Source of the DNA: Eledone cirrhosa
Lineage: Eukaryota
Assembly: GCA_964016885.1 (NCBI GenBank)
Contig: OZ024750.1
Span: 25,978,001 to 26,042,000 of the forward strand
DNA: 64,000 nucleotides
Reading direction: 5' to 3'
In this document: one piece after another, positions 39,984 to 55,506 of the stretch
Layout of the letters: each line of letters starts with the position of its first letter
How positions within the stretch are numbered: position 1 is the first letter of the stretch
Translations under genes and position numbers: made by a program
Notes under the pieces: generated by a model
What the model saw: only the letters and a program-made list of their open reading frames with translations
Database searches by the model: none
Told to the model about the DNA's origin: nothing

Positions 39984-40052
39984 CTGACAGGAAGGTATAC
40001 GGTGCTGATGACAGCTAATAAGCTAGAAACTAGTTCATCGTTCCTTTGTCAG
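39984..40052 (+). ncRNA. Intronic sense hammerhead, family S copy 1
   Basis: ctgacaggaa...cggtg-CTGATGA-c agct aata agct a-GAAAC-ta-GTT-catcg ttcc..tgtcag. Confidence 0.8.
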
Positions 40053-40470
40053 TGTTGAACAAAATGGCACAATGGTTGCCGAACACTGTACGGCTAATAA
40101 TTCTGGCTGTTTGTTTACAAACAAACCGTGCATTATAATAAATATTCGGTAAACCCATACGTACATATATTTATATGTGTGCATGTATGTATATAGATAC
40201 TACTGTACGTCTGTATACATATATATATGTACGTATGCATACTTATATTTAAGTATTAGCCGTACAAAGAGTGAGAAATGAAATTTCCTTTTTTCCATTT
40301 ATATATATATATATATATATATATATATATATATAAATGTAATCTGAGTTTTTCGAATATTAATAATAACATTCGATTCGGATGCAATTATGCAAACGCG
40401 CTTGAATTTTATAGCCTTGTCAGTAGAATGAACACTTCATTCTTGCTCCTGTGTTGGCATGCCGACAGAA

Positions 40471-40514
40471 CTGCAAACACTAATGTTTCTGGGTATCACC
40501 CTTCGTCAGTACAG
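40471..40514 (-). ncRNA. Intronic antisense hammerhead, family A copy 1
   Basis: ctgta-CTGACGA-a ggg tgata ccc a-GAAACA-ttag-TGTT-tgcag. Confidence 0.8.
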
Positions 40515-40667
40515 CCCGCTGTTCTCCTGGAACACCGCTATCTCTTTCTCTCTATCTCGTGTGTGTGGGTGTGTGGTGTGTGCAGGTGTGTGCGTGCTGC
40601 TGTGTGCGTTCATGTGTGTGTGTGTGTAAATATGATGTTTAATATAGACATTTTATATATATTTCAG

Positions 40668-40805
40668 AATGCCGAATAGGAAGGTTATTTGTTCTTAAGT
40701 GTAGTGAGACATGCCATTGTATCAATAACAAAAACTGTGACAATCGAAATGGAATTTGTTCAGATGGATGTATGCCAGGTTATGCTGGTGACAAATGCCA
40801 AAAAG
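40668..40805 (+). CDS. EGF-like repeat exon 2 (138 bp)
   Basis: ECRIGRLFVLKCSETCHCINNKNCDNRNGICSDGCMPGYAGDKCQK; AG/GT. Confidence 0.8.
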
Positions 40806-41000
40806 GTATATCATAAACTTGTTACATAATTACTATAATTCCTATATACACACACACACAGATATACATGTTTATGTGTGTGTTTGTGCGTGTTTGTGTG
40901 TGTGTGTGTGTGGGGGGGGGGGGTATCTGCATGTGTGTGTATGTGTGTGTGTGTGTGTGTAAATATTATGTTTAATATAGAAATCTTATATATATTTCAG

Positions 41001-41132
41001 GATGCCAGATAGGACGGTTTGGTGTTAATTGTAAAAGGGTATGCCATTGTAAGAACAACAACAACTGTGACCATCGAAGTGGAAGATGTTCAGATAGATG
41101 TACTGCAGATTATGTTGGTGACAATTGCCAAG
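41001..41132 (+). CDS. EGF-like repeat exon 3 (132 bp)
   Basis: GCQIGRFGVNCKRVCHCKNNNNCDHRSGRCSDRCTADYVGDNCQ; AG/GT. Confidence 0.8.
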
Positions 41133-41760
41133 GTATATCATAAACTTGTTACGTATTAACTATAATTACTACACACACACACACACACACACACACACAC
41201 ACACACACACACACACACACACATACACACACACACACACACACACACACACAAACACACACACACACACACCCACCCACACACACACACACTCACACTC
41301 ACACACATACAAACACACATACACACACACACTCACACACTCACACACTCACACACATTCATACATATATGTGTATCTGTTTCCGCGTGTATGTGTGTGT
41401 TTGTGTTTGTGTGCATGTCTTTGTGTGTGTGGAAATATGATGTTTAATATAGAAATCGCTACTACAGGACTACTTTTGAATGAAATAGTTCTAATAGTTC
41501 TAAATGTATATATATATATACGTATGTATATATACGTACATATATATATACATGTTACTGTACGTCTGTATACATATATGCATGTACGTATACATACTTA
41601 TATTTAAGTATCAGCCGTAATAAGAGTGAGAAATGAAATTTCATTATTTCCATTTATTGTTTTCGGTACGCCCGGCCGACTAACTCACTCGATATGCAAA
41701 TTAGGTTGCTCAGTCGTTAATATGCATAAGGAAACTATATACTTTCAAAGGTTCAATCAA

Positions 41761-41829
41761 CTGACAGGAAGGTATACGGTGCTGATGACAGCTAATAAGC
41801 TAGAAACTAGTTCATCGTTCCTTTGTCAG
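41761..41829 (+). ncRNA. Intronic sense hammerhead, family S copy 2
   Basis: Identical to 39984-40052. Confidence 0.8.
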
Positions 41830-42236
41830 TGTTGAACAAAATGGCACAATGGTTGCCGAACACTGTACGGCTAATAATTCTGGCTGTTTGTTTACAAACA
41901 AACCGAGCATTATAATAAATATTCGGTAAACCCATACGTACATATATTTATATGTGTGCATGTATGTATATAGATACTACTGTACGTCTGTATACATATA
42001 TGTATGTACGTATGCATACTTATATTTAAGTATTAGCCATACAAAGAGTGAGAAATGAAATTTCCTTTTTTTCCATTTATATATATATATATATATATAT
42101 AAATGTAATCTGAGTTTTTCGAATATTAATAATAACATTCGATTCGGATGCAATTATGCAAACGCGCTTGAATTTTATAGCCTTGTCAGTAGAATGAACA
42201 CTTCATTCTTGCTCCTGTGTTGGCATGCCGACAGAA

Positions 42237-42280
42237 CTGCAAACACTAATGTTTCTGGGTATCACCCTTCGTCAGTACAG
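42237..42280 (-). ncRNA. Intronic antisense hammerhead, family A copy 2
   Basis: Identical to 40471-40514. Confidence 0.8.
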
Positions 42281-42433
42281 CCCGCTGTTCTCCTGGAACA
42301 CCGCTATCTCTTTCTCTCTATCTCGTGTGTGTGGGTGTGTGGTGTGTGCAGGTGTGTGCGTGCTGCTGTGTGCTTTCATGTGTGTGTGTGTGTAAATATG
42401 ATGTTTAATATAGACATTTTATATATATTTCAG

Positions 42434-52681: not shown

Positions 52682-52816
52682 ATTGCCCAGTAGGATGGTT
52701 TGGTGTTAATTGTAAAGGGACATGCCATTGTAACGACAATATTAACTGTGACATCCTTAATGGAAGTTGTTCAGATGGATGTACTACAGGTTATGTTGGT
52801 GACAATTGCCAAGAAG
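52682..52816 (+). CDS. EGF-like repeat exon 9 (135 bp)
   Basis: CPVGWFGVNCKGTCHCNDNINCDILNGSCSDGCTTGYVGDNCQE; AG/GT. Confidence 0.8.
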
Positions 52817-52907
52817 GTATCTCATAAACTTGTTACGTATTTGCTACACACACACACACACACATACACACACACATTTACACACACACACACACACACT
52901 CACTTCA

Positions 52908-53590
52908 ATCTAGATTCTCACTTGTAAATTTTTGAATTTTTAATTTTTGATTCCTGACTATTGATTTTTAATTTTTAGTTTTAATTTCCAACTCTCATTC
53001 ATAATTTCCACTGTGAAACCATAATACCTAGAATTAAGTATATTTTCTCTTAGAGGTTGATGGTCAATGCTACTGTCCATCCTTAATGTAGGGTAGTATT
53101 GAGACCTATTGATACTCACACTCTCCCAACCCCACTAGCTTTCGGCTGACTGCCACTGACCGGGTGGCTAACAGTAAACCATATATTACAGGCCTGAATA
53201 GGTCTGTGTTTGTTTGGGAGGGGGAACGGCCTAGGCGAATTTCGTTGAATTCTGATGTAGCTGATGGTCAATCCTTCGGACCTGCGCCTGCGCAGACCGG
53301 TGGGGGTCAATTGGTACTCACAAGGGAAACGGACGAAGAACCCTAGAACACACACTTCGTCCGTTCCCATGTCGATTCAATTTGGATGGCCTCGGAAACA
53401 TAACCTGACGATGTCGCGGCACTGGCGCACGGAATAGTCTGTCCAATGTCGCCATTGAAATATGTATCACAGCATTATTATTAAAGGACTTTAACATCTG
53501 AAACTACTTATTCGATATTTACTCCGTCACTCCTATGTGGAATAAGTACGTTGAGTGCTTCAATTGAATTACATCAATATTTACCTTAAG
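52908..53590 (+). mobile_element. PLE 3'/pLTR fragment in intron
   Basis: KPYITGLNR-like end, HHR at 53405-53473 (5' stem I strand deleted), ends in (TA)n. Confidence 0.55.
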
Positions 53591-53795
53591 TATATATATA
53601 TATATATATATATATATATATATATATATATATATATATATATATATATATATGTATATAAATGTAAATTGAGTTTTTTTTCGAATATTAATAGCATTCG
53701 ATTCGCTTGCAATTATGCAAACAAGCCTGAATTTTATAGCCATGTCAGTAGAATGAACACTTCATTCTTGCTCCTGTGTTGGCATGCGAAGAGAA

Positions 53796-53839
53796 CTGCA
53801 GACACTGATGTTTCTGGGATTCACCCTTCATCAGTACAG
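53796..53839 (-). ncRNA. Family A hammerhead
   Basis: ctgta-CTGATGA-a ggg tgaat ccc a-GAAACA-tcag-TGTC-tgcag; canonical GUC. Confidence 0.85.
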
Positions 53840-54297
53840 CCCACTGTTATCCTGTAACACCGTCAGAGCCAGTGAAAATATATACTATTTTCAAAAATAC
53901 ACAGTAACTCATCGGCCTAATTTGCATATCAGCAGACTGGCTGATCAGTCAGATCTGCATATTAGCCAGATTTGCAAATCAGCAGACTGGCCAGTCAGTT
54001 TCCTGTATACGAGCGTTAAATGGCCAACTTTGCCAAATTTAAATAAAAGAGACAATTTATATATACAAATTTATACACAACAAAGCCTGCAGCTCCATTC
54101 TTCTCTGCTGTCTACACTCCCTCTCTCTGTCCCTCTTTCAAGCTACTCTCTTACCACCACTATCTCTCTCTCTCTATCTTTCACTCTCTCTTGTGTGTGT
54201 GTGTGTGTGGGTTTGTGGTGGATGCAGGTGTGTATGTGCATGTGTGTGTGTGTGTGTAAGTATGATGTTTAATATAAAAATCTTATATATATTTCAG

Positions 54298-54432
54298 AAT
54301 GCCGAATAGGAAAGTTTGGTGTTAATTGTACAGGGACATGCCATTGTATCAACAACACAAACTGTGACCATCGAAATGGAAGATGTTCAGATGGATGTAC
54401 TGCAGGTCATACTGGTGACAATTGCCAAGAAG
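54298..54432 (+). CDS. EGF-like repeat exon 10 (135 bp)
   Basis: ECRIGKFGVNCTGTCHCINNTNCDHRNGRCSDGCTAGHTGDNCQE; AG/GT. Confidence 0.8.
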
Positions 54433-54617
54433 GTATATCATAAACTTGTTACATAATTACTATAATTACTCTATACACCCACACACATATATATGTGTAT
54501 GTGTGTGTTTGTGTGTGTTTGTATGTGTGTGTGTGTGTGGGGGGGGGGGCGATGTATGTGCATGAGTTTGTGTGTGTAAATATGATGTTTAATATAGAAA
54601 TGTTATATATATTTCAG

Positions 54618-54752
54618 ATTGCCCAGTAGGATGGTTTGGTGTTAATTGTACAGGGACATGCCATTGTAACGACAACATTAACTGTGACATCCTTAATGGA
54701 AGTTGTTCAGATGGATGTACTACAGGTTATGTTGATGACAATTGCCAAGAAG
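54618..54752 (+). CDS. EGF-like repeat exon 11 (135 bp)
   Basis: DCPVGWFGVNCTGTCHCNDNINCDILNGSCSDGCTTGYVDDNCQE; AG/GT. Confidence 0.8.
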
Positions 54753-54916
54753 GTATATCATAAACGTGTTACGTATTCGCTACACACACACACACACACA
54801 CACACACACACACACACACACACACACACACACACACACACACACACACACACACACACACACACACACACACACACACACACACACACACACACACACA
54901 CACACACACTCACTCC

Positions 54917-55506
54917 AATCTAGATTCTCACTTGTAAATTTTTGAATTTCTAATTTTTTGATTCCTGATTTTTGATTTTTAATTTTTAGTTTTAATTTCC
55001 AACTCTCATTCATAATTTCCACTGTGAAACCATAATACCTAGAATTAAGTATATTTTCTCTTAGAGGTTGATGGTCAATTCTACTGTCCATCCTTATTGT
55101 AGGGTAGTATTGAGACCTATTGATACTCACCCTCTCCCAACCCCACTAGCTTTCGGCTGACTGCCACTGACGGAGTGGATAGCAGTAAACTATATATTAC
55201 AGGCCTGAATAGGTCATTGTTTGGTTGAGAGGGGGAACTGCCTAGGCGAATTTCGTTGAACTCTGAGGTAGCTGATGGTCAACTTCATTCGGACCTGCGC
55301 CTGCGCAGACCGGTGGGGGTGAATTGGTACTCACAAGGGAAACGGACGAAGAACCCAAGAACACACACTTCGTCCGTTACCATGTCGATTCAATTTGGAT
55401 TGCCTCGGAAACATAACCTTATTATTTAACAAGCTGTCTGACGATGTCGCGGCACTGGCGCACGGAACAGCCTGTCCACTCTCGCCATTGAAATATGTAT
55501 CACAGT
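54917..55506 (+). mobile_element. PLE 3'/pLTR fragment, duplicate of 52908-53473
   Basis: Colinear match; ends exactly at the HHR stem I. Confidence 0.55.
55433..55506 (+). ncRNA. Type-I hammerhead (sense, intronic)
   Basis: gctgt-CTGACGA-[45-nt stem-loop II]-GAAAT-atgt-ATC-acagt. Confidence 0.7.

What the first reader, a model, noticed from the sequence alone, without database searches (positions are those of the whole stretch)
39984..55506. Each long intron of the EGF gene carries a sense hammerhead, usually paired with a convergent antisense one
Sense HHRs: 39984, 41761, 43494, 48162, 48829, 51578, 53405 (damaged) and 55433. Antisense HHRs: 40471, 42237, 44003, 51928 and 53796. Where family S is absent (after exons 9 and 11), a different sense family sits at a similar distance (~600-700 nt) from the donor. 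Self-cleavage of pre-mRNA there, with the in-frame intron stops, could set transcript length. Repeated minimal HHRs in one pre-mRNA could also dimerise through the palindromic AACUAGUU stem III. Passive co-duplication of PLE relics is the null explanation.
Basis: partly seen in the sequence, partly recalled or inferred. Interest (0 to 1): 0.7.

Follow-up and report, generated by a model that had tools for sequence, protein, structure and literature searches.

The report
Retroelement hammerhead relics in duplicated introns
The self-cutting RNA motifs in these introns are real, but they belong to jumping repeats found all over this animal genome and were most likely copied along as passengers when the gene's exons duplicated, so this looks ordinary rather than like a gene-control device.

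Summary
All 13 listed motifs are present, and the cleavage sites 40035, 41812 and 43545 are right. They are minimal type I hammerheads of four genome-wide repeat families (S, A, T, R). S and R also form long tandem arrays of 450 and 316 nt, as non-LTR retrozymes do. Such motifs occur about every 18 kb in this genome (22 in 400 kb, against 0-1 in shuffles).

The sense rule fails. In paralogous genes only 24 of 66 long EGF introns (2 of 24 in a second cluster) have an intact sense motif. Core positions changed about as often as flanks (low power). Two sense copies are predicted to be buried in hairpins with their inverted neighbours. The in-frame stop lies 9 nt into all 13 introns, with or without a ribozyme.

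Verdict: passive co-duplication of Penelope-type retroelement relics. No RNA data were available. The scan's earlier hammerhead notes on this genome concern a different, permuted fold.

The parts
39254..56843 (+). 13 tandem EGF-like exons (132-156 nt, all phase 1) in pairs, separated by alternating short and long introns; the exon 13 donor reads GG instead of GT and the exon has lost two cysteines
   Evidence: weak Pfam EGF_STAB1-2 match below cut-off in 2 of 3 exons tested
59462..59552 (+). Hydrophobic, probably transmembrane exon (read by eye as [30 protein letters not shown]) with paralogues in the cluster
   Evidence: sequence; 13 paralogous matches among the 14 rows printed
34861..34985 (+). 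Decayed upstream EGF exon: acceptor AG lost, 14-nt deletion, donor lost, relative to an intact paralogue (L232)
39730..40340 (+). Family S element (about 1.3 monomers, about 140-nt terminal direct repeat) with hammerhead C3 40005, H17 40035; C10.1-A11.1 mismatch, GUU site, palindromic ACUAGU stem III
41761..41830 (+). S hammerhead, tandem-duplicated copy (H17 41812), 100% identical to the first over 181 nt
43494..43563 (+). S hammerhead, tandem-duplicated copy (H17 43545), 98.9% identical
47714..48955 (.). S insertion of inverted-plus-tandem type: antisense copy (about 47770-47845) followed by two sense copies (H17 48213 and 48880, 667 nt apart)
   Evidence: 52 of 56 nt of the 48183 motif pair with the inverted copy in the MFE fold
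50425..51780 (.). Family R retrozyme insertion: 3.4 antisense 316-nt monomers plus one inverted sense copy (C3 51610, H17 51645, U3-A8 core); absent at the same site in paralogous gene copies
   Evidence: Rfam HH9 30.4 bits, E 3.4e-4, below the gathering score of 52; 60 of 60 nt paired to the upstream inverted copy
40465..40530 (-). Family A hammerhead (H17 40476), antisense to the gene; duplicates at 42242 and 44008; related copies at 53801 (intact), 51928 and about 49490 (damaged)
52898..53669 (+). Family T element after exon 9; hammerhead at 53405 lacks the 5' strand of stem I
55433..55506 (+). Family T hammerhead: type I, 45-nt stem II starting with U-U, GAAA-UAUGUA-UC, 5-bp stem I; distal stem II mutated, hammerhead fold 12.7 kcal/mol above the MFE
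45716..45790 (-).

Best explanation
These are real minimal hammerhead motifs of four genome-wide repeat families, which likely spread as Penelope-type retroelements and were likely carried along passively when exon-intron units and whole genes of an EGF cluster duplicated. Shown: each family is repeated across the genome; S and R form long tandem arrays; the intronic copies sit beside (TA)n or (CA)n tracts, often as an inverted copy plus a partial tandem; paralogous introns share the same insertions; and R is a recent insertion private to this gene copy. Inferred: the ribozymes served the elements' own replication (cutting tandem RNA into monomers, as dimers through the palindromic stem III) and were conserved at that stage. 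Inferred: in the host pre-mRNA they cut too slowly, or are masked by inverted neighbours, to matter, and so decay at the rate of their flanks. Inferred: an old antisense A copy and later S, T and R insertions (about four events) were multiplied by unequal crossing-over, which produces the 'one per intron' look.
For: Dispersed copies on many contigs, with 1163 (S), 425 (A), 1064 (T) and 1460 (R) first-look candidates, 40 scored each. Tandem arrays: S 445-450 nt, 21 motif matches in a row on C2; R 316 nt over about 40 kb on C2. Background of 22 motifs per 400 kb. In the cluster, 40 sense against 44 antisense motifs; 29 of 72 long introns have neither; outside the window 24 of 66 have a sense motif; in the C2 cluster 2 of 24. 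Four of the seven copies of the 39984-type insertion carry a stem I mismatch; 7 of 15 sense T copies pass the descriptor. Core sites changed against flank sites changed: S sense 4/11 vs 99/229, S antisense 2/11 vs 40/174, T sense 2/11 vs 98/348, A antisense 9/11 vs 140/219; all p>0.3. R is absent from the matching site of paralogues. All five sense S copies fall in a group with no dispersed copies (weak support 83/0). Minimal PLE hammerheads show no monomer cleavage and low dimer cleavage in vitro, and opposite-strand pairs 100-700 bp apart are already described (PMC4209133). Slow intronic ribozymes did not affect splicing (Fong 2009 as cited in PMC10919898).
Against: Motif density in C10 long EGF introns (84 in 258 kb) is about six times the background; I attribute this to co-duplication but did not count independent insertions over the whole cluster. 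Raw per-copy divergence is lower in cores than in flanks (0.024 vs 0.085 for sense S), though equally so in antisense copies (0.020 vs 0.064). The core tests have only 11 sites and the copies are young, so weak selection would be missed. All five sense S copies of this gene keep an intact core and stem I. No autonomous Penelope-type parent was found for S, A, T or R. No RNA data exist here, so lack of cleavage is inferred.
Confidence: 0.85

Rival explanations
1. The motifs are unselected passengers, but some do cut: the two sense S copies 667 nt apart, or the S copies in successive introns, dimerise on the nascent RNA and release linear or circular RNA at a low level, which may slightly lower the gene's output.
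For: Palindromic ACUAGU duplex (-4.8 kcal/mol), and a hammerhead-compatible fold only 2.5 kcal/mol above the MFE for S. Axolotl retrozymes cleave much better as dimers (PMC7229834, passages). Retrozymes are under-represented in Xenopus introns, which hints at a cost (bioRxiv 10.64898/2026.07.22.740005).
Against: S has a C10.1-A11.1 mismatch and a GUU site (a weak triplet, from memory). The 48183 and 51610 copies are predicted to zip up with inverted copies transcribed before them. The other S copies are 1.7-1.8 kb apart with two exons between them. There is no depletion of sense copies (40 vs 44).
Confidence: 0.1
2. One reading: sense hammerheads were domesticated to cut the pre-mRNA after selected exons and so set transcript length or yield short secreted EGF forms.
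For: Five of the six long EGF introns of this gene hold an intact sense motif, from three families. Conserved intronic hammerheads exist in amniotes (PMC6155905, passages), and the Cpeb3 ribozyme affects its mRNA (PMC10919898).
Against: The pattern fails in paralogues (24 of 66; 2 of 24). Cores are not protected. The most widely retained motif (A, 58 copies) is antisense and cannot cut this RNA. The stop at +9 nt is in every intron. A cut RNA would end in a cyclic phosphate without poly(A) and is normally degraded (established knowledge). The gene itself has two decayed exons.
Confidence: 0.04

Closest known systems
Minimal type I hammerheads of metazoan Penelope-like elements (Cervera and de la Pena 2014, PMC4209133; parts 1-2 of 4 read)
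   Same: Type I order, short stem I (4-5 bp proximal), palindromic stem III, U3-A8 core variant, dispersed solo copies in the thousands, opposite-strand pairs a few hundred bases apart.
   Different: S, A and T start stem II with a mismatch (C-A, A-A, U-U) rather than the G10.1-C11.1 pair that the paper calls highly conserved; T has a 45-nt stem II; no coding parent was found for these four families.
Non-LTR retrozymes (PMC7229834, passages; bioRxiv 10.64898/2026.07.22.740005, part 1 of 5 and passages)
   Same: Non-coding tandem repeats with one type I hammerhead per monomer: R (316 nt) and S (445-450 nt); solo, dimer and multimer copies; presence in introns (42-44% of Xenopus copies).
   Different: The S monomer is longer than the roughly 300 bp given as typical; expression as linear or circular RNA is not shown; A and T were not seen as arrays.
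Domesticated intronic ribozymes: amniote RECK/CTCL/DTNB hammerheads (PMC6155905, passages) and Cpeb3 HDV-like ribozyme (PMC10919898, passages)
   Same: Sense orientation inside an intron of a protein-coding gene.
   Different: Those are conserved across species at one orthologous site. These are young, high-copy, decaying and not kept among paralogues. Only R gives a weak match to Rfam HH9 (30.4 bits against a gathering score of 52).

Membership tests
Minimal type I hammerhead ribozyme | Core CUGANGA (or U3-A8) ... GAAA ... UH in type I order | tested here: met
   7 sense and 7 antisense motifs in the interval
Minimal type I hammerhead ribozyme | Stems I and II with covariation | tested here: met
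   for S and one related family (10 rows chosen by me); stems seen but covariation not counted for A, T, R
Minimal type I hammerhead ribozyme | Palindromic short stem III allowing a dimer | tested here: met
   self-duplexes of -4.8 (S), -10.5 (R), -8.8 and -3.5 (A) kcal/mol; T near-palindromic by eye
Minimal type I hammerhead ribozyme | G10.1-C11.1 closing pair | tested here: not met
   met by R only; S has C-A (U-U in the older subfamily), A has A-A, T has U-U. U-U is a known natural variant (PMC3088659, passage)
Minimal type I hammerhead ribozyme | Self-cleavage at H17 | not testable with these tools
   no usable RNA run
Non-LTR retrozyme | Tandem non-coding repeats with one hammerhead per monomer | tested here: met
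   R 316 nt and S 445-450 nt arrays; not seen for A or T
Non-LTR retrozyme | Expressed as monomeric linear and circular RNA | not testable with these tools
Penelope-like element derivative | 5' truncation, partial tandems, adjacent inverted copy, microsatellite target (PMC8557442, passages) | tested here: met
   S, T and R copies with inverted partners; R inserted in (TA)n
Penelope-like element derivative | Same hammerhead at the 3' end of an RT/GIY-YIG ORF | tested here: inconclusive
   found only for a fifth family (63053, 164 nt after the ORF at 61202-62881); one S copy 665 nt after such an ORF in L008. The ORF has no Pfam match; its PLE label rests on recalled motifs
Domesticated intronic ribozyme | Retention at homologous sites and core conserved above flanks | tested here: not met
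Non-circularly permuted hammerhead (type SGC etc., PMC10085705, passages) | Blocks in SGC, CSG or GCS order | tested here: not met
   all four families read as CGS (type I); an alternative GSC reading of T is not kept in older copies

The most novel reading that the evidence does not exclude
Sense S hammerheads in successive introns pair as dimers across two exons on the nascent RNA and cut out 1.7-1.8 kb exon-bearing pieces. These could be circularised and copied back by Penelope machinery, so that a parasite's ribozyme both damps the gene and helps multiply its EGF exon pairs. Against it: exon arrays in the same cluster (27.23-27.25 Mb, 27.31-27.33 Mb) duplicated with no hammerhead or with antisense S.
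Probability: 0.04. Interest if true: 0.75.

Novelty: new member of a known kind. Interest (0 to 1): 0.2.

Why it matters
As it stands it matters little: new families of a known class of retroelement hammerheads, sitting in introns as expected in a genome with roughly one such motif per 18 kb. It has modest use as a natural test bed, because some twenty paralogous gene copies (my estimate from the exon map) share the same insertions in both orientations and show no sign that sense hammerheads are favoured or purged. If cleavage of the pre-mRNA were shown to change output, it would be a rare case of ribozyme domestication caught in progress.

Tried and rejected
Rfam at gathering thresholds: 0 matches in the window. 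By E-value, only R matches a hammerhead model among the 150 rows listed of 151; the rest are microsatellite matches, mostly to miRNA models.

My first descriptor (stem II under 30 nt) missed family T, and I wrongly noted that 55433 was not a hammerhead. The wider descriptor corrected this, and all counts in the report use. The descriptor also misses real family members with a 3-bp stem I or a distal mismatch (63053, 1240), so counts are lower bounds.

A type II (GSC) reading of T, using the upstream GAAA at about 55408, was rejected: the older subfamily and a distant copy (L028) lose it but keep the type I features.

RNA evidence: the 21 RNA or guessed-RNA runs had word shares of 0.06-0.07. 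The one laid (X1, 1 of 21) matched only microsatellite. X22-X24 are one sample of unrecorded kind that behaves like genomic DNA: no exon-exon joints among the 15 rows shown, and depth over S and A two to three orders above exon bins, which is no copy number.

A tyrosine phosphatase domain for the gene: none of 72 PF00102 matches lies in C10 25.85-27.35 Mb (lower-bound search). No downstream coding exon was identified.

Lunse et al. 2017 and Fong et al. 2009 are not held and are cited only through other papers' passages. PMC5680766 was seen as an outline only and not used. Searches for a description of these families found none. I did not open the supplements of PMC4209133, PMC7229834 or PMC8557442, which might list them.
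Full report
Setting. The window lies in a 3.0-Gb animal genome at C10:25,978,001-26,042,000. Thirteen EGF-like exons of 132-156 nt run from 39254 to 56843 in pairs, with alternating short and long introns, followed by a hydrophobic exon at 59462-59552. An exon query finds paralogues across C10 25.85-27.33 Mb and in a second cluster on C2 (150 scored of 1344 candidates). The gene has a dead upstream exon and a last EGF exon with a GG donor, so it may skip these exons or be decaying. 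No RNA data could decide this.

Observation. A structure descriptor finds the listed motifs with the stated cleavage sites. There are four families. S: CUGAUGA, 4-bp stem II closed by a C-A mismatch, palindromic ACUAGU, GUU site. A: antisense, A-A mismatch. R: U3-A8 core, G-C closing pair. T: 45-nt stem II opening with U-U. The 53405 copy lacks its 5' stem I strand and the 51928 copy keeps 3 bp of stem I. The motifs are not chance: 40 unrelated 10-kb stretches, taken at round coordinates, give 22 hits against 0-1 in shuffles, and S stems covary. With them the interval has 7 intact sense and 7 intact antisense motifs. Five of six long EGF introns have an intact sense motif and four have both; the long intron after exon 13 has none.

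What they are. Each family is a genome-wide repeat. S is an element of about 600 nt with a 140-nt terminal direct repeat, found in unrelated contexts and often beside an inverted partial copy. It also forms a 445-450 nt array with 21 motif matches in one C2 intron. R forms 316-nt arrays over about 40 kb on C2 and on C1. T copies vary at their 5' ends and often have inverted partners. Partial tandems, adjacent inverted copies and microsatellite targets are described for Penelope-like elements (PMC8557442, passages). Tandem hammerhead repeats are non-LTR retrozymes (PMC7229834, passages), which a 2026 preprint derives from Penelope pLTRs. I found no coding parent for these four families. A fifth hammerhead family does sit 164 nt behind a Penelope-like ORF at 61202-62881; that ORF label is from recalled motifs, as Pfam gave no match.

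How many events. The three S copies at 39984, 41761 and 43494 are 99-100% identical parts of a tandem exon-pair duplication. They group with four paralogous copies (94/99), and all five sense S copies fall in a group with cluster copies only (83/0, weak; 78 rows). The S trio at 47770-48880 has the inverted-plus-tandem form of a single insertion. R is one recent insertion with three antisense motifs and one sense motif, absent at the same site in paralogues. T at 53405 and 55433 are related copies at the same intron position, shared with paralogues. A lies antisense near the 3' end of many long introns of the cluster. So eight sense motifs reflect about three insertions, two of which brought both orientations. 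The similar donor distance of S and T is a sum of different parts, and sense distances in the cluster run from 481 to 7055 nt.

Test in paralogues. I fetched 49 stretches on C10 and 11 on C2 around exon hits (not the whole clusters) and scored introns of 500-12,000 nt between detected EGF exons. C10: 72 introns; 29 with an intact sense motif, 36 with an antisense one, 22 both, 29 neither; totals 40 and 44. Without the window: 24 of 66 sense, 31 of 66 antisense. C2: 2 of 24 each, 21 neither. Four of the seven copies of the 39984-type insertion have a stem I mismatch, and 7 of 15 sense T copies pass. On C10, core-changed S copies are 8 of 31 sense and 5 of 23 antisense (p=1). Sites changed, core against flank: S sense 4/11 vs 43%, S antisense 2/11 vs 23%, T sense 2/11 vs 28%, A antisense 9/11 vs 64%; none significant (older-subfamily S copies were left out of the S rows). 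Results against my reading: density in C10 long introns is about six times background; raw per-copy divergence is lower in cores than flanks, though in both orientations; power is low; and this gene's five sense S copies are all intact.

Could they cut the pre-mRNA. S can reach a hammerhead-compatible fold at +2.5 kcal/mol, R at +5.4, A at +6.1 and the 55438 T copy at +12.7. Stem III needs a second copy. The 48183 and 51610 motifs are predicted to be almost fully paired to inverted copies transcribed just before them (52 of 56 and 60 of 60 nt). In PMC4209133 a minimal PLE hammerhead showed no cleavage as a monomer and low cleavage as a dimer. Slow ribozymes placed in introns did not affect splicing, whereas fast ones aborted it (Fong 2009, cited in PMC10919898). 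The in-frame stop falls 9 nt after the donor in all 13 introns because their 5' ends are paralogous, so it is not tied to the ribozymes. Antisense A cannot act on this pre-mRNA.

Comparison and verdict. The motifs are predicted to work like the minimal, dimer-dependent hammerheads of Penelope-like elements. S and R meet the sequence definition of non-LTR retrozymes; cleavage and expression are untested. They fail the test for domesticated intronic ribozymes. Earlier scan notes on this genome describe a permuted hammerhead in other repeats. Best explanation: passive co-duplication of retroelement relics (0.85). Interest 0.2; new members of a known kind.

Noticed in passing
G000 background loci L181-L220: About one hammerhead-type motif per 18 kb in 400 kb sampled, from ten or more unrelated families; a rough extrapolation gives over 100,000 in the genome.
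   Followed up: partly
L170:6924-10000 and L171:18-5218 (C2 313.29-313.30 Mb): A 445-450 nt tandem array of the older S subfamily, 21 motif matches (10 passing the first descriptor), lies in sense orientation inside one EGF intron; it is the best candidate here for real dimer cleavage of a pre-mRNA.
   Followed up: partly
window 50425-51780; L091-L120: Young 316-nt retrozyme family with the U3-A8 core; copies 100% identical over 121 nt on C1, C2 and C10, so probably recently active.
   Followed up: partly
window 61202-63100 and 1-1300: Two decayed Penelope-like ORFs, each followed by a fifth hammerhead family (63053, 1240), with an inverted partial copy at 60938-61058; repeated downstream of paralogous gene copies.
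   Followed up: partly
G000 C10 25.85-27.33 Mb; C2 310-315 Mb: Two large tandem clusters of EGF-repeat genes; those on C10 have a transmembrane-type exon, variable exon number and some decayed exons, suggesting birth-and-death evolution. Function not determined.
   Followed up: partly
window 48138-48260 and 48805-48930: Both S copies share a small local variant with the 39984-type copies that their counterparts in a paralogous gene (L016) lack, which suggests gene conversion within this gene.
   Followed up: no
window 47650-48330 and 51050-51790: Long near-perfect intronic hairpins (MFE -431 and -524 kcal/mol) formed by inverted repeat copies; possible substrates for RNA editing.
   Followed up: no
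window 21353-21430 (+), 2864-2902 (-), 35602-35727 (-), 37813-37897 (+): Further hammerhead motifs or relics outside the finding: a long-stem family also seen in three background loci, one more family, an older antisense T copy and a truncated S copy.
   Followed up: partly
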